From a virus, in IMG/VR virus record IMGVR_UViG_3300045988_041147, positions 1-19,032 of that record: a stretch of DNA of 19,032 bases. One strand, 5' to 3'. Under the pieces are notes generated by a model, which made no database searches, was not told the origin of the DNA, and worked only from the letters and a program-made list of their open reading frames with translations. The position numbers were made by a program, and so were the translations under genes. Positions 1 to 19,032 of this stretch are shown here, piece after piece (the stretch's first letter is position 1; each line of letters starts with the position of its first letter).

Positions 1-308
1 AGTTTGCATAACATCAAAAAGAACCATCATTGCAATTGGTGAGTGTCAACTTTTTTTATTTTGGGCTTGTCGTTTTTTTTATTGACACTGTGTCAATGGT
101 TGTATGTACAACAATTTCATATAGCCATTGGTTAACTGGGTTAACTCATGTTGTCTAATTATCTGTAAGTTACGGTAACGTAACCGTAACTTACCAACCG
201 GTAGGTAGGTGTGTTTTAGTGTTTTGCTTCATTTTGTTTTCGGGCGTGTCGTGTTTTTGTTTGTGTTATTATATAACTATCAACTTCAAGGGAAGGAAAA
301 ATAAAATG
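1..308. repeat. Left inverted terminal repeat (308 bp); presumed TP-primed replication origin plus early promoter, RBS and ATG
   Basis: I checked block by block that 1-308 is the exact reverse complement of 18725-19032. Identity stops right after the ATG at 306-308. Confidence 0.97.
262..272 (+). promoter_or_regulatory. Extended -10 promoter inside the left ITR (TGTGtTATTAT)
   Basis: TRTG/TGn motif followed by TATTAT (5/6 match to TATAAT), about 35 nt upstream of the ATG at 306. RBS AAGGGAAGG lies at 288-296. Confidence 0.5.
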
Positions 309-2869: not shown

Positions 2870-3304
2870 ATGGAAAACACCAACACCGCACTTGTCGCAT
2901 TCAACACTGAATCCACCGAACTCGGCACCGTCCAGCACTTTATCGACACTTCCACTCGTGAGGGTAAAATCAAGCTCTACAGCGCATTGCAGAACGCCGA
3001 AAAGCTCGACGAACACCTCAACGAAACCTTGAACATGGTGAATGCCGTTGCTCAGGCCGTACAGGTCACGGACGATCAGACGGGCGAAATATCCAATACC
3101 GTGCGTGTTATCATCGTGACCGACGATAACAAGGCGTATGCGGCCACCTCCCCCACTTTGGCGGCAGGATTGAACACCATGTTCGGTATTTTCGGAACCC
3201 CGAACACTTGGGACGCACCATTGGCTATCAAGGTGGTGGAACGTCGCTCCCGTCGCGGCTTCAAGTTTTTCAGCATTGAGCCCGTGGACGAACAGGGTGA
3301 GTGA
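2870..3304 (+). CDS. Putative phage single-stranded DNA-binding protein (144 aa)
   Basis: It lies immediately upstream of the TP and polymerase genes, like phi29 gp5. By eye the sequence pattern resembles the OB-fold phage SSB family of lactococcal phages, with an acidic C-terminal tail (VDEQGE). Not verified by search. Confidence 0.4.
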   Translation: MENTNTALVAFNTESTELGTVQHFIDTSTREGKIKLYSALQNAEKLDEHLNETLNMVNAVAQAVQVTDDQTGEISNTVRVIIVTDDNKAYAATSPTLAAGLNTMFGIFGTPNTWDAPLAIKVVERRSRRGFKFFSIEPVDEQGE

Positions 3305-3307
3305 ACT

Positions 3308-3316
3308 TGCTATAAT
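3308..3316 (+). promoter_or_regulatory. Extended -10 promoter (TGcTATAAT)
   Basis: Exact TGnTATAAT sits 4 nt after the putative-SSB gene stop, about 70 nt upstream of the terminal-protein gene. Confidence 0.65.
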
Positions 3317-3385: not shown

Positions 3386-4345
3386 ATGTCTCGGAAGAAG
3401 AAGCATGTCAAGGCACGTCAGGCCGCGCAAGCCCGTGCCGCCCGTAACATCAAACAGCTCGGCGCTTACTCCCACTCGAACCTGGCTAAAACTGCAGATC
3501 GCCAATTAGTCAACATTGCGAAAACGCTGGGTAAGGAGTGGGAGCGGCAGAAGAAACAGTCCATAGCGGAAGCGAAGGCAACCCCATATCATGCCACCGC
3601 CGTGGAAAAGCCGACGAAAAAAGACTACATGTTTGCCCAGCGTACACCCATCACGAACGCGCAAATTCAGGCGGAACCCGTAGCGAAACGGCGCAAACTC
3701 CTGCGACAACAGCAACGGAAAATCAATGCGGCACGACGCAAGATCAATGAATGGAACAAAATGCAGGCCATGCCCCCGCGTAGCGTGTATGACCAGCGCG
3801 TGGCAGAACTTGAAGGCACAACCGGTGAGGGGTTTGGACGCACTCAGATCATTCCGTCAAAACTCACCGACTTCCTGCAAATGACCAACGTGTTGAGTGA
3901 TGAAGCATTCGTGCGAAGTCAATTGGAGAGCGGGCACCGGAATGAATTGCGTGAGCAGATGCATGATGTGGCCGAAATCTTGGGACTGCGTACGGAACAA
4001 AAACGCAAGCCGACTAAAAAACGGAAGACAGAGACTCGACCCGACCTATACGACGATCATAATTGGCCGTCCTACATGAGTCGCGGACGCTATGAAGTGT
4101 TCGAGAAAATCTTGGCTACAACGCTCGGCTCGAAACGTTTAAAGCGGTTCCGTCAACTGTCAGCCGCGCAAAAACGTGCGTTTATCGAACAGACAGACGC
4201 CCCCCGTATCGTGTTCGACTGGACAGTGTATGACTCCGTCCGACACGGTTTCACCTCAGTATTTCGAGATAACAGTGAGGGCTATCAGCGCTCACGGCGG
4301 CAATTCGATAGGTGGTTGGCGGAAGCTGGCGCACTGGAAAAGTAG
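3386..4345 (+). CDS. Putative terminal protein (319 aa)
   Basis: It lies immediately upstream of the protein-primed polymerase, as in phi29 and Cp-1. It is very basic, with Lys/Arg-rich clusters at the N-terminus and in the centre. No convincing by-eye similarity to phi29 gp3. Confidence 0.55.
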   Translation: MSRKKKHVKARQAAQARAARNIKQLGAYSHSNLAKTADRQLVNIAKTLGKEWERQKKQSIAEAKATPYHATAVEKPTKKDYMFAQRTPITNAQIQAEPVAKRRKLLRQQQRKINAARRKINEWNKMQAMPPRSVYDQRVAELEGTTGEGFGRTQIIPSKLTDFLQMTNVLSDEAFVRSQLESGHRNELREQMHDVAEILGLRTEQKRKPTKKRKTETRPDLYDDHNWPSYMSRGRYEVFEKILATTLGSKRLKRFRQLSAAQKRAFIEQTDAPRIVFDWTVYDSVRHGFTSVFRDNSEGYQRSRRQFDRWLAEAGALEK

Positions 4346-4372
4346 CGGTCAGTGATCAAGGGACGTTATACT

Positions 4373-5824
4373 ATGACAGTGCAAGACAATAGGGTGGGAT
4401 TATGGTGTATGGATAGCGTCATACGATTTACGGATGGCACCGTGCTACGTGACATTATCGCCCCTAACCGGCTGTTGTCGTCCATTATGTCGGGTGGCAA
4501 ACTCACCATATATGTGACTAACCCAGACGTTTTAGACCCGTTTATCGCGCACGTCGTGCACTCCCTCCCCCACGATGAGCATAATGCTAACCTCAGCTGG
4601 GACGCCATTGTCTCCAAAAAAGGCAAGTTTTTCAGCTTCACGGTGCGTATAGATCGAGAAAATTCCGCACGCTTTTTCGACATATCGAATCTTTTACGAG
4701 AGAATTGCCGTCTCACCATGACCGACGCCCAGCTACTCAACATTTTACGTGAGTATGATGACCGTGGCTTATGTAAGATTACGGCGGGTGGGGCGAGTAT
4801 GGAAGCGTTCGCGTCCGGCGAGTGGAAATGGTATTACGACAAATTCCCACAATTGGAATCCGAAACTAAAAAGTCATTGCATGATGCCTATATCGGCGGA
4901 TTCATGACCGCCAAAGAAGGCATGTACGGCAAAGCTATCGATGTTGACTGCAATTCCATGTATCCGTCCATACTACGGGATGAATGGCTCCCATGGGGTG
5001 AACCCGAACCATATGAAGGCAAATACGAAGAAGATAGCGACATGCCCCTACATTGTGATGAACTCACATTTCGTGCGGAACTCAAACCAAACGGACACCC
5101 TTTTCTGCTCGACAATCGCAGTGTCTACGGATTGAATCGGCTCACTTCCACCCGTGGCTATATCACGCGCGTATTAACCGACATTGATCAACAACTACTG
5201 TATAACAATTATGAAGTGAGCGTCTACAAGCATGTGCGCGGCTGGAAATTCCGCCGCTCCAAAGGCTTTTTCCGCTCGTTCGTGGATGAATGGGGGGAGC
5301 TGAAACAGAAGGCGACGGGCGAGAAACGACAAATGGCGAAACTCATTATGAACGCCCTAGTTGGGAAAATGGCTAGTTTGCCCAAGGGTGCCGTCATGCT
5401 CCCTACCTCCAAAGATGGCATTACCCTCGACTGGGATGTGTCGCAACGTGAGGAATCGAACCTGAAAACCGATTATCTCCCAGTACCCGTATGGGTGAAT
5501 GCTTATGCACGTCGCAAACTTATGACCGTCTGCCACGCTAACGCCGACCGACTTTTGTACGCTAATACGGACGGTTGCATCCTATCAGGCTGGGAACCTG
5601 TGCGATCATGTGACATTCACCCGACTGAGCTTGGTAAGTGGAAGATCGCCGCCCGATATGAGAAATTGACCATACTCGGCATGAACCGTTATCAGGGGTG
5701 GCGTGATGATGGTGAGGTTGACGTATGTATGGCGGGCAACATGTTCTCGCAGCCCATCCCCTATGAGCAATTCCGGCATGGCGTGCAAGTCATGGATGAT
5801 TACGGAACAATGGTCATGCTATAA
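4373..5824 (+). CDS. Protein-primed family-B DNA polymerase, phi29 gp2-like (483 aa; alternative GTG start at 4352)
   Basis: It aligns with phi29 DNAP over AYxGGF, Dx2SLYP (DVDCNSMYP), Kx3NSxYG (KLIMNALVGK), motif C (YANTDG) and the LGxW/thumb region. Spacing fits the TPR1 and TPR2 insertions. AAGGGA lies 9 nt upstream of ATG 4373. Confidence 0.93.
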   Translation: MTVQDNRVGLWCMDSVIRFTDGTVLRDIIAPNRLLSSIMSGGKLTIYVTNPDVLDPFIAHVVHSLPHDEHNANLSWDAIVSKKGKFFSFTVRIDRENSARFFDISNLLRENCRLTMTDAQLLNILREYDDRGLCKITAGGASMEAFASGEWKWYYDKFPQLESETKKSLHDAYIGGFMTAKEGMYGKAIDVDCNSMYPSILRDEWLPWGEPEPYEGKYEEDSDMPLHCDELTFRAELKPNGHPFLLDNRSVYGLNRLTSTRGYITRVLTDIDQQLLYNNYEVSVYKHVRGWKFRRSKGFFRSFVDEWGELKQKATGEKRQMAKLIMNALVGKMASLPKGAVMLPTSKDGITLDWDVSQREESNLKTDYLPVPVWVNAYARRKLMTVCHANADRLLYANTDGCILSGWEPVRSCDIHPTELGKWKIAARYEKLTILGMNRYQGWRDDGEVDVCMAGNMFSQPIPYEQFRHGVQVMDDYGTMVML

Positions 5825-5825
5825 T
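5817..5825 (+). promoter_or_regulatory. Extended -10 promoter (TGcTATAAT) overlapping the polymerase stop codon
   Basis: Exact TGnTATAAT. The TAA stop (5822-5824) lies inside the hexamer. Confidence 0.6.
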
Positions 5826-5829
5826 GTCT

Positions 5830-6002
5830 ATTGTCTTCTGAGCGTCGATTTTCGGCTGGGGATAACACGGGTCGGACTGCCACGGCTGAGAATGCCGCCG
5901 ACCGTGAACATCACTATCATGGCGGTAGTGCTCTACGATTTTCACTTTGCGCTCACATAAGACAGTCTAGACCCCGCGTGATTGCGGGGTCATTTATTTT
6001 CT
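5830..6002 (+). ncRNA. Candidate structured non-coding RNA of about 170 nt (pRNA-like or regulatory leader)
   Basis: It is bounded by the 5817 promoter and the 5970-6002 terminator. A long-range helix pairs 5830-5837 and 5839-5844 with 5950-5955 and 5959-5966. Internal hairpins lie at 5866-5906 and 5912-5930. No credible ORF is present. Confidence 0.45.
5970..6002 (+). terminator. Intrinsic terminator (GACCCCGC-6 nt-GCGGGGTC followed by ATTTATTTTCT)
   Basis: An 8-bp GC-rich stem and T-rich tail, seen directly. It ends the early/replication transcription unit. Confidence 0.8.
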
Positions 6003-6009
6003 CGCCGCA

Positions 6010-6018
6010 TGATATAAT
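6010..6018 (+). promoter_or_regulatory. Extended -10 promoter (TGaTATAAT) for the morphogenesis genes
   Basis: Exact TGnTATAAT lies 8 nt after the terminator and about 37 nt upstream of the scaffold ATG. There is no obvious -35. Confidence 0.7.
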
Positions 6019-6054
6019 TTTGATGGAAACATTACCGATCATAAGGAGCTTTGC

Positions 6055-6339
6055 ATGGCAGACCCAAACAATGACGGCGAGGAAAACACTACCCCACCGC
6101 CGACCGAAGAGGAACAGCAGACCGAAACCGTAGATGATGAAGTCAAACCGAAGGAGCCGGAACCGGAACCGAAACAGGAACCGGACGTTTCCGCACGACT
6201 CGACTCCATTGAAAAAGAATTGGCTACGTTGAAGGCCATGATGGATACGCTCGGCTACACCGACCCCACCCCATCCGACAATGATAATGGTGGCGACGGT
6301 GATAAGGCGCAAGAGTCCATCGAAGATTTGTTCGACTAA
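6055..6339 (+). CDS. Scaffolding protein, phi29 gp7-like (94 aa, acidic)
   Basis: It lies directly upstream of the MCP gene. It is small, very acidic and helix-prone. AAGGAG RBS upstream. Confidence 0.7.
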   Translation: MADPNNDGEENTTPPPTEEEQQTETVDDEVKPKEPEPEPKQEPDVSARLDSIEKELATLKAMMDTLGYTDPTPSDNDNGGDGDKAQESIEDLFD

Positions 6340-6355
6340 CAGAAAGGTATAAACA

Positions 6356-8071
6356 ATGTCCAATATTCGACCATTGGCCGGTAAGGGTGACGTTGAGATT
6401 TTCAACGCCGTCCGTAACGCCACATCCCCACAGTTCCAAATCCGTATCCCGTCTGTCACGCAGGGCAATATCCGCAATGCGGTGGACACCATGCGTAACT
6501 TCCCCTACTTACGCGATGAGTTCACCGGTGTTTTGATTCAGCGCTTGATCGGCCTGTATATCCAGCATGCTGATTGGGATGACCCGCTCAAGCTGATTGG
6601 CTCCCCCCGCACCCTCAAGCGTTACGGCTCCACGTATGAGCAGGCGGCAGTAGGCTTGGTCAAGGCACGCACCCGTAATTTCAACAAGGAATATCTCGGC
6701 GATGACGTCTACGGACGCTATTCGCTGCCGACCGCAAGCGTATTCCATCCACTGACGTTCGATCATTACTATCCTGTCACTATCCCAGAGGATGCCTTGC
6801 TGACCGCTTTTGACGGCGAATCCGGCATGAGCGATTACATTTCCGAGATTATGAACGCCCCGATCTTGAGTGATCGTAACGACATGTATCTCATGAAAAC
6901 CCAGTGTTTCGCGGAATACGCACGCAAGGGCGGCTTCTACCGTGTCCACACGACGGACGTGGGCGCGGCAAATTCCACCGAAGCGGACGCCAAGGGACTG
7001 TTGCGTCTTATCCAGCAGGTTGCGAACGAGTTGAAGGCGTCTCCAATGTCGGCTATGCCGCGATATAACGCCATGAGCTGGGTGACTCCGTGGCGAGATT
7101 CGGAAGCGATCCTGTTTGCTACGCCGCAGGTGATTGCCGCGCTTAACGTCGAAGCTCTCGCCGCCGCGTTTAATATCGACAAGGTCAATGTGCCGTATCG
7201 TATCATCCCAATTCCGGAAGACATGTTCGGCATTGGCGGGCAGGGCGGCAAGGTGCAGGCCGTGCTCACCACGGAAGACTTCTTCTTCTGCTGGGATGAG
7301 ATGCTGGAAACGACGAACTCTCCCGTGAATCCGATTGACGGCACGCGCAATATCTTCTACAAGCACAGGGGATCTATCACCCCTAATCCGTTTGCCAACG
7401 CTATTCTGTTTTGGACTGGCAAAGATTCCACCCAGTCCGTGACGTTGCCGGATACGCTCACTACATCGAAGCCGGTGTTCGAACTGAAAGTGCAGAAATA
7501 CGGTCAGCCCGCCGTCACACCGCAAAATGTTAACCGTGGCGATTTGGTACAGGTGGTGTCTACCATCGAAAGTGCCAACAAGGCTAAGGCAACGTTCCAG
7601 CCGGTCGGCGTCACCTATGAACTTGAGGGCGCAACCTCGCAGTTTACCATCATTGATAATGACGGTATCCTTCGTTGTGGCCTTGACGAAACCGCAGAAT
7701 CCCTCAAGGTCACCGCACAGGCCACCTATATCAATCCAGCAACCCCCGAAATCGACCAGACCGTTTCCGCCGCGCTGGATGTACCGGTTGTGGGCACTTG
7801 GGTTGGCGGTTTCAAAGTCGGGGCGTTGAATCAAATCCATGTTGACGGATTAAGCGCTGTCAAGCAGGGGGAAAGCATTAAACTGACCGCCTCGACCGTC
7901 ACAGCCGATGGGAATAAGGTTGATATCAGTAACATAGCCAAGTGGGCAGTGGACTCGCACGCCACCGTTGACCAGACTGGCAAAGTTACCGGCGTAAGTG
8001 CCGGAACCGCCAACGTCTCAGCCAAGTTTGCGGGTATGACAGGATATCGTGCTATCACTGTCACCGTCTGA
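6356..8071 (+). CDS. Major capsid protein, phi29 gp8-like, with C-terminal Big_2 Ig-like domain (571 aa)
   Basis: By eye it aligns with phi29 gp8 over several blocks (for example ALLTAF...ISEIMNA and LAAAFNI). The C-terminal ~80 aa (about 7830-8068) show the Big_2 pattern. Confidence 0.93.
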   Translation: MSNIRPLAGKGDVEIFNAVRNATSPQFQIRIPSVTQGNIRNAVDTMRNFPYLRDEFTGVLIQRLIGLYIQHADWDDPLKLIGSPRTLKRYGSTYEQAAVGLVKARTRNFNKEYLGDDVYGRYSLPTASVFHPLTFDHYYPVTIPEDALLTAFDGESGMSDYISEIMNAPILSDRNDMYLMKTQCFAEYARKGGFYRVHTTDVGAANSTEADAKGLLRLIQQVANELKASPMSAMPRYNAMSWVTPWRDSEAILFATPQVIAALNVEALAAAFNIDKVNVPYRIIPIPEDMFGIGGQGGKVQAVLTTEDFFFCWDEMLETTNSPVNPIDGTRNIFYKHRGSITPNPFANAILFWTGKDSTQSVTLPDTLTTSKPVFELKVQKYGQPAVTPQNVNRGDLVQVVSTIESANKAKATFQPVGVTYELEGATSQFTIIDNDGILRCGLDETAESLKVTAQATYINPATPEIDQTVSAALDVPVVGTWVGGFKVGALNQIHVDGLSAVKQGESIKLTASTVTADGNKVDISNIAKWAVDSHATVDQTGKVTGVSAGTANVSAKFAGMTGYRAITVTV

Positions 8072-8089
8072 CATAATCGGTAGGCGATA

Positions 8090-8128
8090 GAATGGGTATG
8101 GGAGCGATTTCATGCCCATTCTTTTTTT
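8090..8128 (+). terminator. Strong intrinsic terminator after the capsid gene
   Basis: An 11-bp stem (8090-8100 with 8111-8121, one G-U pair), a 10-nt loop, then seven T residues (8122-8128). Confidence 0.85.
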
Positions 8129-8141
8129 AGGAGGATTTTTT

Positions 8142-10376
8142 ATGAGCGCTAACGATCTGCCCATTAATTTTTCGTACGCAAAATGGACGCCAAACACCAA
8201 ATTCAAACTCTGTAACGTCCCGTGGGATATGGGCTACCGAGACATAGTCAAATGGGATAAAAACACTCAGCAAGAGTATTTCGACCGTTTGAATGGCATC
8301 GAGTTCACAAATTGCACCATGAGCAAGTACGGACTACCCGTGAGACTGCCCGTGCCTTTTGCGCAAGCGTGTCAATACAATTATCTGATCGCCACGAACG
8401 ACTATGACTTCGACACCCCCCGTAGTTGGTATTATTTCATCCAGACATGCGATTATATCAACGCCAACACCACGCAGCTCAATATCCAGTTGGACGTATG
8501 GCAATCATTCCAGCACGATATTCAATTGGGCAATGCCTATGTGGAGCGCGGCCATGTGGGGGTTGCCAACGAGAACGCATGGAAAGATTATGGCAAAACG
8601 TACCTTGATCTACCTGAGGGGCTTGACACCGGTAAATGCACCGTGCTCACGAATGAGTCATGGCACCCATTGATGGGGGCTAAGTCAAACTCGGAATACT
8701 CGTATGGCATCATCATTGCTACCACGGTAAAACTGGAGGCTGATGCCGGAAACAAAGACAATCCAACCGTACAAAGCGCTACCGGGAGCACGTTTGAGAA
8801 CCAGATGAACGGCACGGAACTCTACTATCTCGATAATACGTCCGATATTTTCAAATTCTTCGGAGCAGGCTCTACGAAACCATGGGCAACGCAAGGAATT
8901 TGTGGAATCTACATGGTGCCGACCATTCCAACGAAAATGCTTGAAAACCATGCCGCCAAAAATCCAAAACTGTTCGGACAGAATGTGCAATGGTCGGGCG
9001 CGTGCTGGCTTTTGACGGGCAATGTTGCAAACTCTTCCGATAGATATGAAGATATTATCGATATTAAGAATTTTCGTGACACATTCCAACTCCCAGCACG
9101 GTACAGGTATTTGAAGAAATTCCTTACCGCCCCATACGCCTACATCGAATGTTCATGCTTGAACGGTACCGTGATCACGTATGAGCCTGAGCAAATTCCG
9201 AGTGCTGACTTGATTATCCGCGAGTCGTGGAATTACGCGCCACCTTCCCCACGCTTGAACTTCTACGCGAGAGGTTATCATGCAGGGAACTTAGGTGAAC
9301 GCCAACCGCTACCAAACGGACTCGGGTTGCCTATCGATACGGGCGACATGCTCAACGCAAGTTTCGGCATCACCAATTTCCCCACCTTCATGGCGGTAAA
9401 CAATGGCAGCGCCCTCGCTCTTGCGAACAGCGCCTACACGCGCCAATACGCCCAGCAATCCGCTGACTGGGGTTATCAGAAAACCCAAATGGGTATCAAC
9501 AACGCTTACGCTCAGGCACAACTTGGAACGCAGTATGCGAGCGCACAGAACAGGTTGGGCTCGTCCAACCGGAACGCCATGAATGCGATCAGCAATCAAT
9601 CTGCGCAGATGGGCACCGATTTGACGTTGAAGAATCTCGGATTCAACAACCAGATGGCGCAGTTGAATACCATCGGATCTGGCATTGCGAACGCCGCCGG
9701 TGCCGCCGTAACCGGCAATATCGGGGGTGTGGCCGGAGCGGCTGCAGGCACCGCCATTGGCGCATGGACAAATCAGCAGACCTACAACAACAACGTGTCA
9801 ACCGCGAACCAGCAATTGGCGAACACGCAGACCACGAACAATGCCAGCACCTCACAGGCCAACGCTTTTTCACTTGCGCAAACCAACTTGAGCAACCAAC
9901 AAACCATGCAGCTTGCCGATATGAACAAACAACTAGCTCAAGCCACGGCGCAAGGCGATTACGAAAACACGATCGCCGGAATCAACGCGCAGGTACAACA
10001 GACCCAAACCGTACCGCCGACCACGTCCGGCGCTCTAGGAGGTGATGCATTCAACTTGGCTAACGGGCTGATCGGTGTCATGGTACGTTTCAGGCAAATC
10101 TCTCCCGCCGCCATGCACGCCATTGGCGAGGTGTGGCTACGCTACGGCTACTATGTGCAACGCTTCATGAAACTGCCTGAAAATCTCATGGCAATGTCTA
10201 ATTTCACATATTGGAAACTGCATGAATTGTATGTGCGTAGTTCGACGTGCCCAGAAGAATACCGTCTTACCGTAAAAGGTATTTTTGAGAGTGGCGTGAC
10301 CGTATGGACCGACCCCGATAAGATTGGTGTCACCGATTATGCGGACAATATGCCACTAGCCGGTATCGCATACTAA
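8142..10376 (+). CDS. Tail knob / distal tube protein, phi29 gp9-like (744 aa)
   Basis: The N-terminal and C-terminal blocks align with phi29 gp9, including the C-terminal ...GVTVWTD.DKIG. It has a central Q/N/A-rich region with a Gly/Ala hydrophobic loop. AGGAGG at 8129-8134 lies 7 nt upstream of ATG 8142; the track start at 8112 lies inside the terminator stem. Confidence 0.9.
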   Translation: MSANDLPINFSYAKWTPNTKFKLCNVPWDMGYRDIVKWDKNTQQEYFDRLNGIEFTNCTMSKYGLPVRLPVPFAQACQYNYLIATNDYDFDTPRSWYYFIQTCDYINANTTQLNIQLDVWQSFQHDIQLGNAYVERGHVGVANENAWKDYGKTYLDLPEGLDTGKCTVLTNESWHPLMGAKSNSEYSYGIIIATTVKLEADAGNKDNPTVQSATGSTFENQMNGTELYYLDNTSDIFKFFGAGSTKPWATQGICGIYMVPTIPTKMLENHAAKNPKLFGQNVQWSGACWLLTGNVANSSDRYEDIIDIKNFRDTFQLPARYRYLKKFLTAPYAYIECSCLNGTVITYEPEQIPSADLIIRESWNYAPPSPRLNFYARGYHAGNLGERQPLPNGLGLPIDTGDMLNASFGITNFPTFMAVNNGSALALANSAYTRQYAQQSADWGYQKTQMGINNAYAQAQLGTQYASAQNRLGSSNRNAMNAISNQSAQMGTDLTLKNLGFNNQMAQLNTIGSGIANAAGAAVTGNIGGVAGAAAGTAIGAWTNQQTYNNNVSTANQQLANTQTTNNASTSQANAFSLAQTNLSNQQTMQLADMNKQLAQATAQGDYENTIAGINAQVQQTQTVPPTTSGALGGDAFNLANGLIGVMVRFRQISPAAMHAIGEVWLRYGYYVQRFMKLPENLMAMSNFTYWKLHELYVRSSTCPEEYRLTVKGIFESGVTVWTDPDKIGVTDYADNMPLAGIAY

Positions 10377-10383
10377 AAGGTAT

Positions 10384-10414
10384 AATGGGGAGAGTGTAAG
10401 AAACTCTCCCCATT
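10384..10414 (+). terminator. Perfect 12-bp hairpin (AATGGGGAGAGT / ACTCTCCCCATT) with a weak A/T-rich tail
   Basis: Seen directly between the tail knob and portal genes. It is followed by ATTATTATGTT rather than a clean U-tract. A TATAAT at 10381-10386 overlaps its 5' arm. Confidence 0.45.
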
Positions 10415-10434
10415 ATTATGTTAGGACGGTGATT

Positions 10435-11373
10435 ATGGGTAAACGTAATAACGCAAGAAAGGCCGCGCACTGGGACAACCAGAGCGTTTTAGGATCCATG
10501 TGGGGTAATCTGAATCTGCCCGAAATGCGGCAGTCGCTCAGAATTAACCAGTATATGAAGCTTATTGAAATGTTGGCGGTAAGTCGGTTCAAGTGGATTA
10601 ATCTACCACCTTATATCGATGAAAGATATTTGGAACTAACACTATTCGAGAATGGTCTAGCCCTCTTTTTCCCCGACAAGCGTAAGGGCGTTAACCGTTT
10701 TATGGTCACGTCCGGTAATATTGGCGGGGTTAACAACTATAATAATCCAACCTTGTTCCAGCCGGTGGCAACCCACTATTCGCACCCTCAGATTGGTAGC
10801 AAGGAATGCGTGCCCATTTGGGATAATCAGCTCAGGTGTACGATGATTGACGTGATGTGGAATTATGCCACGCGCCTTGCTATTGCAGACCGTGCGCTGG
10901 ATGTGAATTTGGACAATATCAGCGTTCCACTCATTATTGCCACGTCCGAAACCAACAAATTGACCGCCCAAAATCTCATGAAGGCGCGTGAAGACGGCGA
11001 CCCATACATTTACACGTATGATTCCGCCGATATTACCGGTATGTTCCAGACATTTCCTAACGTCACGCCGTTTTTGGCGGATAAGATCATCACCACGAAA
11101 ACGCAGATTTGGAACGAACTTGTTAATTACCTTGGCATTGATAACAGCACGACGGAAAAGAAGGAACGACTACTTGAAAGTGAGGTCACGGCGGGAAACT
11201 CACGTACGAACGTGTTTCGCCTGAGCTATCTCAAGGCGCGTCAACAGGCGTGCGATACGATCAACCGACTGTGGCCGCAAATGGCCGACTCGGGATATCC
11301 TATTGGCATTGAATGGAATGACACCACGTCCGGTGGTCTATTGGACGTGGAAGGCAACAAGGAGGAAGAATGA
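10435..11373 (+). CDS. Portal / upper collar connector, phi29 gp10-like (312 aa)
   Basis: Strong by-eye alignment to phi29 gp10: RFKWINLPPYID.., WNELVNYLGIDNSTTEKKERLLESEV, LKARQQACDTIN. ATG 10435 follows AGGACGG; the track start at 10429 is GTG. Confidence 0.95.
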   Translation: MGKRNNARKAAHWDNQSVLGSMWGNLNLPEMRQSLRINQYMKLIEMLAVSRFKWINLPPYIDERYLELTLFENGLALFFPDKRKGVNRFMVTSGNIGGVNNYNNPTLFQPVATHYSHPQIGSKECVPIWDNQLRCTMIDVMWNYATRLAIADRALDVNLDNISVPLIIATSETNKLTAQNLMKAREDGDPYIYTYDSADITGMFQTFPNVTPFLADKIITTKTQIWNELVNYLGIDNSTTEKKERLLESEVTAGNSRTNVFRLSYLKARQQACDTINRLWPQMADSGYPIGIEWNDTTSGGLLDVEGNKEEE

Positions 11374-16185: not shown

Positions 16186-16196
16186 TGTGATATAAT
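16186..16196 (+). promoter_or_regulatory. Extended -10 promoter (TGTGaTATAAT)
   Basis: Exact TRTGnTATAAT lies 4 nt after the tail-lysin stop. Confidence 0.65.
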
Positions 16197-16299: not shown

Positions 16300-17367
16300 A
16301 TGGCATTGCAAACATTGGCCGAAGATGACTATTATGACTTACATAATCTGCTCACCCGAAACGCTCCATGGAATTTCATTATCGGCGCACGCGGACTCGG
16401 CAAAACGTTCGCCGCCAAACGATACGGCATCAAGGAATACATCAAGCACGGCCATGAATTCATTTATCTCAGGCGCACAGACGTGGAACAGCACCGCAAG
16501 GAAACCTTCTTCAAAGACATTCAAGAGTTCTTTCCCTCATACGAGTTTCGTGTGAACGGCGAAAAAGGACAATTGCATAAGACATCATGGGACGAAAAAG
16601 ACTGGCGCACATGCTGCTATTTCGTCGCACTCTCCCAAGCGGGCGGACTAAAATCAGTGGCCTACCCTAAAGTACATTTGATTATTTTCGACGAAATCTT
16701 CCCCGACAACCTACGTTTTTTAAGCAATGAAGTAAACAGTTTCAGCGAGTTCTATAATACCGTTGACCGTTGGCAGGATAGAACAAAAGTGCTGTTTTTA
16801 TCCAACGCAGTGCAGAAAGCCAATCCCTATTTCGCGAAATACCGACTAGACATTGGAGCACAACAAACCAACCAACAACAATACAAACTCTACTGCGGTG
16901 GATTCGTCTGCTTAGAATTGGCAGACTATGGCGGATTCAGTGCGAAAGTCGCACAGTCCAAGTTCGGACGATTTCTTGAGCAGTATGACGGGGATTATGC
17001 CGACTATGCGATCAGAAACAAGTTCCGAGATGAGTCGGACACATTGCTAGCGCCCATCCCGAGCGACGGCGAACTCTCATACATTTTAGACACTAACGAC
17101 TATGCGCGATTCGGAATATGGGTTTCCGTATCCGAACGCGATGGGCATGTTTCACAATATGTTTCACGACGTATCCCCAAAGACAATACCAGACCCGTCT
17201 ACACGCTCGACCCCAACCATGTTGACGAAAAAACATGGTACGTCAAAAAGTCAGATGATATCATACGACGGCTCACCACCGGCTATCGACTCGGTAAAAT
17301 CCGTTTCGATGATTCGCAGGTCAAGGCCGATTTTGGTTTGATCATTGGAGAATTACTAGGCAAATAG
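16300..17367 (+). CDS. DNA encapsidation (packaging) ATPase, phi29 gp16-like (355 aa)
   Basis: NFIIGARGLGKT (Walker A), HLIIFDEI (Walker B), LSNAV...NPYF, VYTLDP and IRFDD blocks all align with phi29 gp16. Confidence 0.96.
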   Translation: MALQTLAEDDYYDLHNLLTRNAPWNFIIGARGLGKTFAAKRYGIKEYIKHGHEFIYLRRTDVEQHRKETFFKDIQEFFPSYEFRVNGEKGQLHKTSWDEKDWRTCCYFVALSQAGGLKSVAYPKVHLIIFDEIFPDNLRFLSNEVNSFSEFYNTVDRWQDRTKVLFLSNAVQKANPYFAKYRLDIGAQQTNQQQYKLYCGGFVCLELADYGGFSAKVAQSKFGRFLEQYDGDYADYAIRNKFRDESDTLLAPIPSDGELSYILDTNDYARFGIWVSVSERDGHVSQYVSRRIPKDNTRPVYTLDPNHVDEKTWYVKKSDDIIRRLTTGYRLGKIRFDDSQVKADFGLIIGELLGK

Positions 17368-18481: not shown

Positions 18482-18727
18482 TTACCAAGTACGAGCGAAC
18501 GCTTCAATATCCTCTGCAGAAAACAGGTACAAATCATCATCTGTCTCATATGGTAGAAGGAACTGATAGGAATCATACTGAGCCACGCCATAATCGTCAA
18601 CAGCTTGGACACGGTCAATACTGGTCACGATGGCGACCTTGAAGCCCAGAAGCGTTATGGACGGGTCATTCCACAGCGTAGTGAGAAGTTCGTTCTTTTC
18701 ATTTGGGGTCATGTTTGAAATATCCAT
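18482..18727 (-). CDS. Small, highly acidic right-end early protein (81 aa)
   Basis: It starts at the ITR-borne ATG (complement of 18725-18727). By my count it has 15 Asp/Glu against 4 Lys/Arg. The track start at 18814 lies in the ITR and is an artefact. Confidence 0.7.
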   Translation of the reverse strand: MDISNMTPNEKNELLTTLWNDPSITLLGFKVAIVTSIDRVQAVDDYGVAQYDSYQFLLPYETDDDLYLFSAEDIEAFARTW

Positions 18728-19032
18728 TTTATTTTTCCTTCCCTTGAAGTTGATAGTTATATAATAACACAAACAAAAACACGACACGCCCGAAAACAAA
18801 ATGAAGCAAAACACTAAAACACACCTACCTACCGGTTGGTAAGTTACGGTTACGTTACCGTAACTTACAGATAATTAGACAACATGAGTTAACCCAGTTA
18901 ACCAATGGCTATATGAAATTGTTGTACATACAACCATTGACACAGTGTCAATAAAAAAAACGACAAGCCCAAAATAAAAAAAGTTGACACTCACCAATTG
19001 CAATGATGGTTCTTTTTGATGTTATGCAAACT
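18725..19032. repeat. Right inverted terminal repeat (308 bp)
   Basis: Exact reverse complement of 1-308. Confidence 0.97.
18761..18771 (-). promoter_or_regulatory. Extended -10 promoter inside the right ITR (mirror of 262-272)
   Basis: Same sequence as the left ITR promoter. It drives the acidic 81-aa gene. Confidence 0.5.

What the first reader, a model, noticed from the sequence alone, without database searches (positions are those of the whole stretch)
5817..6002. Self-contained promoter-to-terminator non-coding unit (~170 nt) between polymerase and scaffold genes: candidate pRNA-like packaging RNA
The 230-bp gap after the polymerase gene is the largest non-coding region apart from the ITRs. 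An exact extended -10 (TGCTATAAT, 5817-5825) overlaps the polymerase stop. A good intrinsic terminator lies at 5970-6002. A second exact TGATATAAT (6010-6018) then restarts transcription for the late genes, so the unit looks like its own transcript of roughly 170 nt. That is the size class of phi29 pRNA (174 nt), which gp10-portal/gp16-ATPase packaging motors of the phi29 group need. Both motor proteins here are clear phi29 homologues. The predicted 5' end pairs with a distal segment: 5830-5837 with 5959-5966 (8 bp, one G-U) and 5839-5844 with 5950-5955 (6 bp). This resembles the 5'/3' helix A of pRNA. Inside the helix are a bulged hairpin (5866-5875 with 5898-5906, capped by 5883-5886 with 5894-5897) and a 7-bp hairpin (5912-5918 with 5924-5930). 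An 8-nt U-rich direct repeat CGATTTTC (5846-5853 and 5936-5943) flanks them at the junction. The internal loop GCCA (5879-5882) is complementary to the hairpin loop UGGC (5920-5923), like the 4-bp inter-loop contacts that oligomerise pRNA. Caveats: 4-nt complementarity is easily a chance event, I folded only by eye, and I see no primary-sequence similarity to phi29 pRNA. Alternative readings are a put-like antitermination RNA, a regulatory leader, or simply a structured 3' UTR.
Basis: partly seen in the sequence, partly recalled or inferred. Interest (0 to 1): 0.8.

Follow-up and report, generated by a model that had tools for sequence, protein, structure and literature searches.

The report
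Candidate packaging RNA of Bifidobacterium phage
Between the DNA polymerase and scaffold genes of this small phi29-like Bifidobacterium phage lies a conserved gene for a folded RNA of about 170 nt whose shape matches, helix for helix, the 'prohead RNA' that Bacillus phage phi29 needs to package its DNA; that kind of RNA has so far been reported only from Bacillus phages.

Summary
Window 5817-6002 holds a conserved extended -10 promoter, a ~135-nt folded domain and an intrinsic terminator. A second promoter for the late genes follows.

The element is present once, on the gene strand and in the same gap, in all 100 related phage contigs examined. It is non-coding.

Covariation supports the fold. 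On 88 distinct sequences 89% of cells are paired, against 32-48% in slid controls, and 35 pairs show compensatory changes. The 4-nt contact GCCA (5879-5882) with UGGC (5920-5923) is 98% paired. Its G-C pair changed to A-U at least six times, always via G-U.

Rfam's pRNA model RF00044 does not match. The architecture is nevertheless the same as phi29 pRNA:
- a helix formed by the 5' and 3' ends;
- a three-way junction;
- a helix of 5 bp, one bulged base and 4 bp;
- a bulge on the 5' side only, whose last four bases pair with the last four bases of a 5-nt hairpin loop;
- a 4-bp hairpin with a UGAG-containing loop.

The genome encodes phi29-type portal and packaging ATPase proteins. Similar RNAs sit at the same locus in other phi29-like phages of Actinobacteria.

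Best reading: a diverged prohead (packaging) RNA, probability about 0.65. Its function is untested.

The parts
5817..5825 (+). Extended -10 promoter P1 (TGCTATAAT), overlapping the polymerase stop codon (TAA, 5822-5824). The inferred transcription start is about 5832.
   Evidence: In 78 of 79 relatives the sequence is TGYTATRAT (L048 has CGCTATAAT). The last Leu codon is always CTA or TTA, the two rarest Leu codons in this genome (70 of 415). Where the stop codon changes from TAA to TGA, the TAnnnT pattern is kept. That it acts as a promoter is inferred.
5830..5966 (+). Domain I of the RNA, closed by helix A. Helix A has four segments: P1a 5830-5837/5959-5966, P1b 5839-5845/5949-5955, P1c 5847-5854/5936-5943 (with a UUU/UUU internal loop) and P1d 5858-5860/5931-5933.
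   Evidence: P1a has 7 of 8 pairs with compensatory changes, and P1b has 4 of 7. P1c is fully Watson-Crick or wobble paired in L282 and nearly so in L048. Covariance model R1 scores 152.9 bits here, and this is its only match in the window.
5866..5906 (+). C/E-like arm. Helix P2 pairs 5866-5870 with 5902-5906, has G5871 bulged, then pairs 5872-5875 with 5898-5901. A bulge on the 5' side only follows at 5876-5882 (ACUGCCA). Helix P2b pairs 5883-5886 with 5894-5897 and is capped by the loop UGAGAAU at 5887-5893.
   Evidence: P2 has 7 of 9 pairs with compensatory changes. P2b is 99.7% paired, with double changes in L282. The layout is the same as the C helix, CE bulge and E hairpin of RF00044.
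5879..5882 (+). GCCA, the last four bases of the bulge. It is the proposed partner of the hairpin loop (counterpart of the 'right-hand' or CE loop of pRNA).
   Evidence: The contact is 98% paired with 5920-5923 in 88 distinct sequences. The pair 5879:5923 is G-C in 71, G-U in 9, A-U in 8, and never broken.
5912..5930 (+). D-like hairpin P3. Its stem pairs 5912-5918 with 5924-5930. Its 5-nt loop at 5919-5923 reads AUGGC here and GUGGC in most relatives. UGGC at 5920-5923 pairs with GCCA.
   Evidence: All 7 stem pairs show compensatory changes and 100% of cells are paired.
5970..6002 (+). Intrinsic terminator: a hairpin at 5970-5991 followed by a U-rich tract. It is the counterpart of domain II and the 3' end of the RNA.
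   Evidence: it heads the terminator-like list for the window. The stem covaries (CCCCGCG/CGCGGGG, CCCUCCG/CGGAGGG, CUCGGCG/CGCCGAG). That it terminates transcription is inferred.
6010..6018 (+). Second extended -10 promoter P2 (TGATATAAT) for the scaffold, capsid and later genes. The ribosome-binding site AAGGAG is at 6043-6048 and the scaffold ATG at 6055.
   Evidence: All 79 relatives have TGRTATRAT here, apart from a 1-base gap in the last positions in one.
10429..11373 (+). Portal (upper collar) protein, a homologue of phi29 gp10. It is the expected docking site of a prohead RNA. Its N-terminus is basic (MGKRNNARKAAH).
   Evidence: (chain 1h5w, E = 7.5e-29).
16300..17367 (+). Packaging ATPase, homologous to phi29 gp16 over nearly its whole length, including the C-terminal domain.
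   Evidence: chain 7jqq, E = 1.5e-37, query residues 11-341 aligned to chain residues 6-318.

Best explanation
The region encodes a discrete non-coding RNA of about 170 nt. It is transcribed from its own extended -10 promoter (start near 5832) and ends at the intrinsic terminator at 5970-6002. I propose that it is the functional counterpart of phi29 prohead RNA (pRNA).

Domain I (5832-5964) folds into a long, interrupted helix made by the 5' and 3' ends, and this helix leads to a three-way junction. One arm of the junction is a 9-bp helix with a 7-nt bulge on its 5' side, capped by a 4-bp hairpin with a conserved UGAGAAU loop. The other arm is a 7-bp hairpin with a 5-nt loop.

The proposed mechanism is inferred from phi29. 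GCCA in the bulge pairs with UGGC in the hairpin loop of a neighbouring molecule, so that the RNAs form a ring on the portal vertex of the empty prohead. The long helices A then project outward and dock the gp16-like ATPase that pumps the terminal-protein-capped DNA into the head.

Shown here: the fold, its conservation, the base-pairing of the two tetranucleotides, and the presence of phi29-type motor proteins.

Inferred: transcription as a separate unit, pairing between molecules rather than within one, binding to proheads, and a requirement for packaging.
For: (1) Conservation. Covariance model R1 finds exactly one match per locus in 100 of 100 related contigs, always on the gene strand in the polymerase-scaffold gap. 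It finds one match in the window.

(2) It is an RNA of the + strand. On a MAFFT-only alignment of 35 sequences, 92.6% of cells are paired against 34-50% in slid controls, and 27 pairs have double changes. On 88 distinct sequences the figures are 89.3% against 32-48%, with 35 pairs. G-U cells outnumber A-C cells 375 to 60. No reading frame is conserved and lengths vary modulo 3. The reverse strand folds 10 kcal/mol worse.

(3) Loop-loop contact. It is 98% paired, against 2-67% in slid controls. All 8 sequences with A at 5879 have U at 5923. On a neighbour-joining tree the G-to-A change arose at least 6 times, each time with U as the partner.

(4) Architecture. The RF00044 consensus on phi29 reads: helix A with bulges; C helix of 5 bp, a 1-nt bulge and 4 bp; a 9-nt bulge on the 5' side only, ending in AACC; E helix of 4 bp with loop UUGAGU; UUU; D helix of 6 bp with loop UGGUU; no unpaired base before helix A. 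This RNA reads: helix A with internal loops; 5 bp, a 1-nt bulge and 4 bp; a 7-nt bulge on the 5' side only, ending in GCCA; 4 bp with loop UGAGAAU; AACAU; 7 bp with loop AUGGC (GUGGC in most relatives); no unpaired base before helix A. In both RNAs the complementary tetranucleotides are the last four bases of the bulge and of the D loop.

(5) Two-domain layout and size. The predicted RNA is about 167-171 nt, made of domain I, a short linker and a terminal hairpin. phi29 pRNA is 174 nt, made of domain I (117 nt), a 13-nt linker and domain II (PMC5066667).

(6) Motor proteins. The ATPase matches phi29 gp16 over nearly its full length (7jqq, E = 1.5e-37). The portal matches gp10 (1h5w, E = 7.5e-29) and has a basic N-terminus.

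(7) The criteria used in 2025 to accept new pRNAs are all met. They are a conserved secondary structure with a three-way junction, paired right- and left-hand loops that covary with a CC/GG core, and gp10 and gp16 in the same genome (PMC12670572).

(8) RNAs with a helix from the two ends and a bulged C/E-like arm, and with a D hairpin where it could be resolved, lie at the same locus in other phi29-like phages of Actinobacteria. The Arthrobacter Anjalivirus type has an E loop UUGAAU and GCU/AGC complementarity. The BadAztec type has an E loop UUARGU. Curtobacterium phage Reje has one too.
Against: - RF00044 gives no match, even at E <= 10. There is no demonstrable sequence homology, so the likeness could be convergence or chance resemblance between two three-way-junction RNAs.
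- The gene sits between the polymerase and scaffold genes. The phi29 pRNA gene lies near the left end of the genome, under early promoter A1.
- Only one of the four loop-loop pairs covaries; the others are nearly invariant. Sequence data cannot tell pairing between molecules from a pseudoknot within one molecule.
- In BadAztec-type relatives the hairpin after the RNA has no U tract and no second promoter follows. There the RNA would be the 5' leader of the late mRNA, which fits a cis-regulatory role at least as well.
- In the Anjalivirus-type RNAs the loop complementarity is an invariant 3-bp core, and the fourth position pairs in only about half of the sequence types.
- The strict structural descriptor was written after I had seen the structures. 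It has a background of about one hit per 50 kb.
- There are no expression, prohead or packaging data.
Confidence: 0.65

Rival explanations
1. It is a cis-acting transcription-control RNA at the boundary between early and late genes, in the manner of the put RNAs of phage HK022. The nascent RNA made from promoter P1 would modify RNA polymerase. The polymerase would then read through the terminator at 5970-6002 and later terminators in the late operon.
For: The RNA lies directly after a promoter and directly before a terminator, at the head of an operon of about 12 kb on one strand. A strong terminator-like hairpin follows the capsid gene at 8089-8122, and no TGNTATAAT occurs on the + strand between there and 16188. 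Some form of read-through is therefore needed. In BadAztec-type relatives the RNA is contiguous with the late-gene leader and no second promoter is present.
Against: In all 79 sequences of this clade a canonical terminator with a U tract is followed by a separate conserved promoter, which makes read-through unnecessary for the scaffold and capsid genes. No alternative pairing competes with the terminator stem; domain I and the terminator form together in the minimum-energy fold. put RNAs are two simple stem-loops of about 70 nt (my own knowledge), not a three-way junction with a covarying loop-loop contact. The detailed match to pRNA, and the recurrence of this RNA type in phi29-like phages of distant hosts, would be coincidence under this reading.
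Confidence: 0.13
2. It is a trans-acting structured non-coding RNA with a function unrelated to packaging, for example a decoy for a host protein, an anti-defence RNA, or a factor in protein-primed replication.
For: The fold, the covariation and the self-contained promoter-to-terminator layout show only that it is a functional RNA. Nothing measured here ties it physically to the prohead. No Rfam family matches.
Against: This reading does not explain the element-by-element correspondence with pRNA. It also does not explain why similar RNAs accompany phi29-type motor genes in phages of Bifidobacterium, Arthrobacter and Curtobacterium. No other pRNA candidate was found in a genome whose ATPase is of the pRNA-dependent phi29 type.
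Confidence: 0.15
3. It is only a structured 3' untranslated region and terminator region of the early (polymerase) mRNA, serving to stabilise that message. The upstream TGCTATAAT is not a working promoter.
For: Early transcripts that run through the polymerase gene would include the element and end at the same terminator. Promoter activity has not been tested.
Against: A 135-nt three-way junction with invariant single-stranded loops and a covarying tertiary contact is far more than a stabilising hairpin needs. The -10 element is conserved at the nucleotide level, against codon preference and across changes of stop codon. Conserved pairing begins exactly where a transcript from P1 would start.
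Confidence: 0.05
4. It is a DNA-level element (a protein-binding site or cruciform) or a small protein-coding gene.
For: Mechanical ORFs overlap the region: 5703-5960 and 5831-6133 on the + strand, and 5814-5945 on the - strand.
Against: G-U pairs outnumber A-C pairs 375 to 60, which is specific to an RNA of the + strand. All three + strand frames carry stop codons in 61-69 of the 79 relatives, and lengths vary modulo 3. Compensatory changes preserve pairing, not sequence.
Confidence: 0.02

Closest known systems
Prohead/packaging RNA (pRNA) of Bacillus phage phi29 and its relatives (Rfam RF00044 Phage_pRNA; phages SF5, B103, M2/NF, GA1, DLc1 and others)
   Same: - A small non-coding RNA of a phi29-like phage with protein-primed replication, encoding gp10-type portal and gp16-type ATPase proteins.
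- About 170 nt, with its own promoter, made of a folded domain I followed by a terminal hairpin domain.
- Helix A is formed by the 5' and 3' ends and is interrupted by bulges.
- A three-way junction.
- C helix of 5 bp, a 1-nt bulge and 4 bp.
- A bulge on the 5' side only, next to a 4-bp E hairpin whose loop contains UGAG.
- A D hairpin with a 5-nt loop, stacked directly on helix A.
- The last four bases of the bulge are complementary to the last four bases of the D loop, with a CC/GG core and covariation.
   Different: - RF00044 does not match, and there is no sequence similarity.
- Domain I is about 133-137 nt rather than 117 nt. Helix A carries extra internal loops, including a conserved UUU/UUU loop.
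- The junction linkers are 5 nt and 5 nt, rather than 1 nt and 3 nt (UUU).
- The E loop has 7 nt rather than 6, and the bulge has 7 nt rather than 9.
- The gene lies between the polymerase and scaffold genes on the same strand as every other gene, not near the left end of the genome.
- The host is an actinobacterium from the human gut (Bifidobacterium), not Bacillus.
- Binding to proheads and formation of a ring have not been tested.
put antiterminator RNAs of lambdoid phage HK022 (my own knowledge)
   Same: A structured RNA encoded immediately after a promoter and before a terminator, at the head of a long phage operon.
   Different: put RNAs are two stem-loops of about 70 nt that act in cis on RNA polymerase. 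They have no helix formed by the two ends, no three-way junction and no loop-loop contact. Here a second promoter follows the terminator, and the RNA looks like a finished product.
Unannotated structured RNAs at the syntenic position in other phi29-like phages of Actinobacteria (BadAztec1/BadAargau2, the Anjalivirus phages, Curtobacterium phage Reje), found here
   Same: They occupy the same locus, upstream of the scaffold gene. They share a helix formed by the two ends and a C helix with a bulge on the 5' side only, next to a short E hairpin. Their E loops (UUGAAU, UUARGU, CUGAUA) resemble the UUGAGU of phi29. They have a D hairpin whose loop is complementary to the bulge over 3-4 bases (the D hairpin of the BadAztec type is not resolved). 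A strong hairpin follows the RNA in the BadAztec and Anjalivirus types.
   Different: Models R1 and R2 do not find each other's families. The BadAztec type lacks a U-tract terminator and a second promoter. Too few sequences are available to test these structures by covariation, and the loop complementarity is mostly invariant or only 3 bp.

Membership tests
Phage pRNA (Rfam RF00044) | Scores at or above the gathering threshold (100 bits) of the RF00044 covariance model | tested here: not met
   No match at the gathering threshold over the whole window. None at E <= 10 in 5750-6080. The positive control, phi29, scores 145.4 bits. The RNA is therefore not a member of the Rfam sequence family.
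Phage pRNA (structural and functional class) | Helix A formed by pairing of the 5' and 3' ends of domain I, interrupted by bulges | tested here: met
   Segments P1a to P1d (5830-5860 paired with 5931-5966). They are present in the minimum-energy fold. Compensatory changes occur in 7 of 8 P1a pairs and 4 of 7 P1b pairs. P1c is fully paired in L282.
Phage pRNA (structural and functional class) | Three-way junction joining helix A, the C/E arm and the D hairpin | tested here: met
   The comparative structure has a single branch point. The D-like hairpin abuts helix A with no unpaired base between them, as in RF00044.
Phage pRNA (structural and functional class) | C helix, then a bulge loop on the 5' side only (CE or right-hand loop), then the E stem-loop | tested here: met
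   5866-5906 consists of 5 bp, a 1-nt bulge, 4 bp, a 7-nt 5' bulge, and a 4-bp stem with a 7-nt loop. Helix P2 has 7 of 9 covarying pairs. RF00044 shows the same pattern.
Phage pRNA (structural and functional class) | Right-hand (bulge) and left-hand (D) loops complementary over 3-4 bases, with covariation | tested here: met
   GCCA at 5879-5882 pairs with UGGC at 5920-5923. The contact is 98% paired in 88 sequences, against 2-67% in slid controls. The first pair is G-C in 71, G-U in 9 and A-U in 8. The G-to-A change arose at least 6 times independently, always with U as partner. Only this one pair varies informatively.
Phage pRNA (structural and functional class) | The loop-loop pairing is between molecules and builds a ring on the prohead | not testable with these tools
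   Sequence covariation cannot tell pairing between molecules from pairing within one. This needs trans-complementation of loop mutants, native gels or cryo-EM.
Phage pRNA (structural and functional class) | Encoded by a genome that also has a gp10-type portal and a gp16-type packaging ATPase | tested here: met
   ATPase against chain 7jqq, E = 1.5e-37, matching nearly the whole length. Portal against chain 1h5w, E = 7.5e-29. PHROGs families for terminase and upper collar connector match.
Phage pRNA (structural and functional class) | A discrete transcript of about 170 nt, made of domain I, a linker and domain II | tested here: inconclusive
   A conserved promoter, a terminator whose stem covaries, and pairing that starts at the predicted transcription start together predict an RNA of 167-171 nt. 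No transcript data are available.
Phage pRNA (structural and functional class) | Bound to proheads and required for DNA packaging (packaging sensitive to RNase) | not testable with these tools
   Experimental only.
put-type processive antiterminator RNA | Acts in cis: the regulated genes are on the same transcript, downstream of the RNA, with no intervening promoter | tested here: inconclusive
   In this clade a conserved second promoter follows the terminator, which argues against this. BadAztec-type relatives have none. A terminator-like hairpin at 8089-8122 has no consensus promoter after it.
Riboswitch or attenuator leader | Mutually exclusive terminator and antiterminator pairings | tested here: not met
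   Domain I and the terminator hairpin form together in the minimum-energy and centroid folds. Only 3-5 nt separate them. No Rfam cis-regulatory family matches.

The most novel reading that the evidence does not exclude
Prohead RNA is not peculiar to Bacillus phages. On this reading it is an ancestral, widespread part of the phi29-type packaging motor. In phi29-like phages of Actinobacteria (Bifidobacterium phages of the human and honeybee gut, and Arthrobacter and Curtobacterium phages from soil) it would be encoded between the replication and head genes. This window's RNA would be the best-supported representative, forming a ring through GCCA/UGGC pairing.
Probability: 0.55. Interest if true: 0.85.

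Novelty: new variant of a known kind. Interest (0 to 1): 0.8.

Why it matters
According to a 2024 review and a 2025 covariance-model survey, pRNA is known only from phi29 and related Bacillus phages (PMC11476376; PMC12670572). It is the only known case of an RNA built into a viral DNA-packaging motor. It is also a workhorse of RNA nanotechnology.

A pRNA-type RNA in abundant Bifidobacterium phages of the human gut, with look-alikes in other phi29-like phages of Actinobacteria, would have several consequences:
- It would show that RNA-dependent packaging is a general trait of the phi29-like lineage, not a Bacillus oddity.
- It would give a second, deeply diverged family for asking which features of pRNA are essential. 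Candidates are the junction geometry, the bulge-loop contact and the E loop.
- It would make the question of whether pRNA is ancestral to these motors directly testable, because cultured phages carrying this RNA exist (BP1 and BD811P1-3).
- It would add new self-assembling three-way-junction scaffolds.
- It would correct genome annotations. None of the GenBank records fetched here marks an RNA in this region, and in phage Reje the annotated scaffold start overlaps it.

Tried and rejected
- Rfam scans found nothing: the gathering threshold on the whole window, E <= 10 on the region, and E <= 5 on eight related loci.
- No tRNA or tmRNA gene is present.
- The minimum-energy fold of this one sequence pairs 5848-5858 with 5883-5893. 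I rejected this pairing. It can form in most close relatives only because both strands are conserved, and it breaks in L042 and L282, where helix P1c instead shows compensatory changes.
- RNAalifold suggested a small hairpin at CGAUUUUCG (5846-5854). I rejected it in favour of P1c because of L048 and L282. One sequence, L059, does fit the hairpin better.
- The 16-mer GGCTGARAAYGCCGCC (viral contigs) and the 16-mer CGTATTARGTTACGCC (metagenomes) returned mostly chance matches. The first search gave only a handful of new family members (among them L192, L193, L198 and L204). The second gave four BadAztec-type copies.
- A protein search with the capsid protein listed only relatives that are 79-88% identical, so it gave no intermediates.
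- Model R1 does not detect the BadAztec, Anjali or Reje RNAs. Model R2 does not detect the window or phi29. Homology among these families therefore rests on position and architecture only.
- A loose structural descriptor was useless, giving 5-11 hits per 19-kb strand. The strict version still gives about one false hit per 50 kb and was designed after I had seen the structures.
- The D hairpin and the loop contact of the BadAztec-type RNA could not be resolved from the sequences available, which form only two subgroups.
- In the Anjalivirus-type family the fourth loop-loop pair is not consistently maintained.


Full report
WHAT THE WINDOW IS. The 19,032-bp window is a complete linear phage genome with perfect 308-bp inverted terminal repeats. 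It is identical in length to IMG/VR contig UViG_3300045988_023605, which was recovered as locus L254. All convincing genes lie on the + strand. In order they are: a DNA polymerase (4352-5824); a short acidic ORF that I take, from its position next to the capsid gene, to be the scaffold gene (6055-6339; no family match); the major capsid protein (6356-8071); a tail protein; the upper collar or portal protein (10429-11373); the lower collar protein; an endolysin; and the packaging ATPase (16300-17367). The closest cultured relatives are Bifidobacterium phages BP1 and BD811P1-3, at 75-80% DNA identity across this region. These are phi29-like podoviruses (PMC11476376). In their GenBank records the gap of about 230 bp between the polymerase and the next gene carries no annotation.

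THE OBSERVATION.
- TGCTATAAT (5817-5825) overlaps the polymerase stop codon, and TGATATAAT lies at 6010-6018.
- The motif TGNTATAAT occurs five times, against 0.64 expected, and no shuffle reaches five. Its four + strand copies all fall at gene junctions.
- The hairpin at 5970-5991 with its U-rich tail heads the terminator-like list for the window.
- The reverse strand folds 10 kcal/mol less well.
- No tRNA or tmRNA gene and no Rfam family match the region.

CONSERVATION. A search with the capsid protein returned 80 IMG/VR contigs, and further scans added more.
- The intergenic region can be aligned in all of them, at 71-97% identity. Three divergent copies (L042, L025, L033) are recognisable only by structure and by a few invariant blocks.
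- A covariance model (R1) built from 35 diverse copies finds exactly one full-length match in each of 100 loci. The match is always on the capsid-gene strand and always in the polymerase-scaffold gap. The window has one match.
- The upstream -10 element is TGYTATRAT in 78 of 79 unique sequences (L048 has CGCTATAAT). The final Leu codon of the polymerase is always CTA or TTA, the two rarest Leu codons in this genome. Where the stop codon changes from TAA to TGA, the TAnnnT pattern survives.
- The second promoter is likewise conserved (TGRTATRAT in all 79, apart from a 1-base gap in one), and the terminator stem shows compensatory changes.
- No reading frame stays open across the element, and its length varies modulo 3.

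THE STRUCTURE. Comparative analysis gives the following fold, written with index i equal to the window coordinate minus 5825.
- Helix A has four segments: P1a 5-12:134-141, P1b 14-20:124-130, P1c 22-29:111-118 (with a UUU/UUU internal loop) and P1d 33-35:106-108.
- A three-way junction follows.
- The first arm starts with helix P2 (41-45:77-81, G46 bulged, 47-50:73-76). It continues with a 7-nt bulge on the 5' side only (51-57, ACUGCCA). It ends in helix P2b (58-61:69-72), capped by the loop UGAGAAU.
- The second arm is hairpin P3 (87-93:99-105) with a 5-nt loop, which reads AUGGC here and GUGGC in most relatives.

On a plain MAFFT alignment of 35 sequences, 92.6% of cells are paired, against 34-50% when the partners are slid by 1-3 columns. 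Twenty-seven pairs have changes on both sides, against 7-11 in the slid controls. All five whole-structure measures exceed every one of 500 shuffles. On the model-guided alignment of 100 loci (88 distinct rows) the figures are 89.3% against 32-48%, and 35 pairs against 10-15. That alignment leans towards the modelled structure, but the MAFFT-only result and an independent RNAalifold run agree with it.

G-U cells outnumber A-C cells 375 to 60, so the structure belongs to an RNA of the + strand. The very divergent copy L282 (92 bits) keeps every helix with many double changes, and turns the UUU/UUU region of P1c into eight contiguous pairs.

Conserved pairing begins at 5832, which is where a transcript from the 5817-5825 promoter should start. 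For this sequence the comparative structure is only 2.4 kcal/mol above the minimum-energy fold.

THE LOOP-LOOP CONTACT. GCCA is the last four bases of the bulge (5879-5882). UGGC is the last four bases of the P3 loop (5920-5923).
- Across 88 distinct sequences 98% of cells are paired, against 2-67% in slid controls.
- The first pair is G-C in 71 sequences, G-U in 9 and A-U in 8, and is never broken. All eight A-containing bulges go with a U-containing loop.
- On a neighbour-joining tree built without these two columns, the G-to-A change arose at least six times and the C-to-U change at least seven times. The A always appears where the partner is U. This is the classic route from G-C through G-U to A-U.
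- The other three pairs are almost invariant. The few changes are mostly wobble-compatible (C to U opposite G, A to G opposite U), and seven sequences have a mismatch at the A-U pair.
- The two tetranucleotides therefore do pair. Whether they pair within one molecule or between molecules cannot be read from sequences.

COMPARISON WITH pRNA. As a control I ran Rfam on the left end of phi29. RF00044 matches 201-318 on the - strand at 145 bits, and the tool prints its consensus structure. Set side by side:
- Helix A: interrupted by bulges in phi29; interrupted by internal loops here.
- Junction from A to C: 1 nt in phi29; 5 nt here.
- C helix: 5 bp, a 1-nt bulge on the 5' strand, then 4 bp, in both.
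- Bulge, on the 5' side only: 9 nt ending in AACC in phi29; 7 nt ending in GCCA here.
- E stem: 4 bp in both. E loop: UUGAGU in phi29; UGAGAAU here.
- Junction from C to D: UUU in phi29; AACAU here.
- D stem: 6 bp in phi29; 7 bp here.
- D loop: 5 nt in both, UGGUU in phi29 and AUGGC (GUGGC in most relatives) here. In each, the last four bases are the complement of the bulge tetranucleotide.
- No unpaired base lies between the D hairpin and helix A in either RNA.

phi29 pRNA is 174 nt, made of domain I (117 nt), a 13-nt linker and domain II. Different pRNAs share only about 12% sequence identity but keep this secondary structure (PMC5066667). The RNA predicted here is about 167-171 nt, made of domain I (about 133 nt), a 5-nt linker and the terminator hairpin.

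The packaging ATPase aligns with phi29 gp16 over nearly its whole length, including the C-terminal domain (7jqq, E = 1.5e-37). The portal aligns with gp10 (1h5w, E = 7.5e-29). The portal starts MGKRNNARKAAH. [quoted passage not shown]

A 2025 survey accepted twelve new Bacillus-phage pRNAs on three criteria: a conserved secondary structure with a three-way junction, paired and covarying right- and left-hand loops with a CC/GG core, and gp10 plus gp16 in the same genome (PMC12670572). This RNA meets all three.

It fails the one formal test of family membership, a match to RF00044. I therefore do not file it as a member of that Rfam family. I file it as a structurally equivalent, sequence-unrelated variant of the same kind of RNA.

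RELATED RNAs ELSEWHERE. At the same locus, other phi29-like phages of Actinobacteria carry unannotated structured regions.
- Honeybee-gut Bifidobacterium phages BadAztec1 and BadAargau2, four metagenomic copies, and the more distant L215 and L216. These have a TGYTATRRT promoter over the polymerase stop codon, an outer helix GUGAGCG/CGCUCAC, a C helix with compensatory changes, a 5' bulge, and an E hairpin CGUA[UUARGU]UACG. A strong hairpin follows, but it has no U tract and there is no second promoter. Their D hairpin is not resolved.
- Arthrobacter phages Anjali, Swim, Tillums and Mendel, with IMG/VR contigs L379 and L376-L378, found with a second model, R2. These have a helix formed by the two ends, a C helix, a 6-nt bulge on the 5' side only ending in GCU, an E hairpin with a UUGAAU loop, and a D hairpin whose loop contains UAGC. 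A strong hairpin follows. GCU/AGC is an invariant 3-bp complement. The fourth position pairs in Anjali, Swim, Mendel and L379 (A-U or U-A), but not in Tillums, L376 or L377.
- Curtobacterium phage Reje shows the same layout by eye.

A strict descriptor of the shared core hits the phi29 pRNA, the window RNA, the Anjali RNA and L379 at the right places. I wrote it after seeing the structures, and its background is about one hit per 50 kb, so it counts only as weak support. None of these RNAs matches RF00044. Models R1 and R2 do not cross-detect.

INTERPRETATION. It is close to certain that this is a functional, structured RNA of the + strand. The best explanation is a prohead-RNA equivalent, at about 0.65.

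The main rival is a cis-acting control RNA at the switch from early to late genes (about 0.13). Three things keep it alive: the arrangement in BadAztec-type phages, the terminator-like hairpin after the capsid gene at 8089-8122, and the absence of a consensus promoter between there and 16188. Three things weaken it: in this clade a canonical terminator is followed by a separate conserved promoter; no antiterminator pairing competes with the terminator; and the detailed match to pRNA would be left unexplained.

An unrelated trans-acting function (about 0.15) cannot be excluded without experiments. A mere 3' untranslated region (about 0.05), or a DNA element or small protein (about 0.02), is unlikely.

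NOVELTY. The literature I could search treats pRNA as confined to phi29 and related Bacillus phages. None of the papers that mention these Bifidobacterium or Curtobacterium phages and that I checked mentions a pRNA. I rate the finding a new variant of a known kind, with interest 0.8.

Noticed in passing
L206 2866-2990 (BadAztec1); L207 2881-3003 (BadAargau2); L215 1980-2100; L216 1976-2096; also L300, L320, L329 and L370: Honeybee-gut Bifidobacterium phages and two IMG/VR contigs carry a different structured RNA at the same polymerase-scaffold junction. It has a TGYTATRRT promoter over the polymerase stop codon, an outer helix GUGAGCG/CGCUCAC, a C helix with a 5' bulge, and an E-like hairpin CGUA[UUARGU]UACG. 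A strong hairpin follows, but it has no U tract, and no second promoter precedes the scaffold ribosome-binding site. The D hairpin and the loop contact are unresolved.
   Followed up: partly
L208 2857-2971 (Arthrobacter phage Anjali); L372-L374; L379 648-762; L376 690-804; L377 234-347; L378 727-840: Anjalivirus-type phages and soil contigs have a 115-nt RNA upstream of the scaffold gene. It has a helix formed by the two ends, a three-way junction, a 6-nt bulge on the 5' side only (NNNGCU), an E hairpin with a UUGAAU loop, and a D loop containing UAGC. GCU/AGC complementarity is invariant. A strong hairpin follows. Model R2 finds it at 51-137 bits. Its 5' end overlaps the last bases of the annotated ribbon-helix-helix gene.
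   Followed up: partly
L209 2925-3040 (Curtobacterium phage Reje): By eye the same layout is present: helix GAUACCUAG/CUAGGUAUC, C helix GGGGA/UCCCC, 5' bulge AUCGCUA, E hairpin GGG[CUGAUA]CCC, and a long D arm with loop CUUGCGU (CGC/GCG complementarity). The 3' strand of the outer helix overlaps the annotated start of the scaffold gene at 3021, so that start may be placed too early.
   Followed up: no
L381 700-815 (IMGVR_UViG_3300045988_111193, human gut): This is a weak R2 match (18.9 bits) with mixed features. It has an 8-bp C helix, a 5' bulge AGUGCCA that is almost identical to the window's ACUGCCA, an E loop containing UGAAU, and a downstream GUGGC. It may link the window's family to the Anjalivirus type. 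Its D hairpin is unclear.
   Followed up: no
window 1-308 and 18725-19032: The inverted terminal repeats are perfect and 308 bp long. Those of phi29 are 6 bp (PMC11476376). Each contains a terminator-like hairpin (189-206 on the + strand; 18844-18827 on the - strand).
   Followed up: partly
window 3308-3316, 16188-16196 (+) and 8452-8460 (-): These are the other exact TGNTATAAT motifs. The two + strand copies sit just before the ORFs that start at 3386 (unidentified; the gene upstream of the polymerase) and at 16300 (packaging ATPase), which suggests separate promoters for those genes. The - strand copy lies inside the tail gene.
   Followed up: partly
window 8089-8122 (+): A strong terminator-like hairpin (15 pairs plus TTTTTTT) lies right after the capsid gene. 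The mechanically called start of the next ORF (ATG at 8112) lies inside its 3' arm, so either that start is wrong or translation initiation and termination overlap. No TGNTATAAT follows on the + strand until 16188, so the tail and portal genes seem to need read-through.
   Followed up: no
window 10382-10416 (-): A 14-pair hairpin with a T-rich tail is predicted on the - strand, between the tail gene and the portal gene, although every convincing gene is on the + strand. On the + strand it is an inverted repeat in the 52-nt gap before the portal start.
   Followed up: no
window 5848-5858 with 5883-5893: The minimum-energy fold of this one sequence pairs AUUUUCGGCUG with CGGCUGAGAAU, that is, the 5' strand of P1c with the 5' strand of P2b and the E loop. 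This pairing can form in most close relatives (69-100% per position at 10 of 11 positions) but not in divergent ones. It could be a folding intermediate or alternative conformer, or just a by-product of conserved sequence.
   Followed up: partly
window 10429-10470: The ORF called for the portal starts at a GTG two codons before an ATG. From the ATG the protein begins MGKRNNARKAAH, a basic N-terminus that recalls the N-terminal region of phi29 gp10 that contacts RNA.
   Followed up: no
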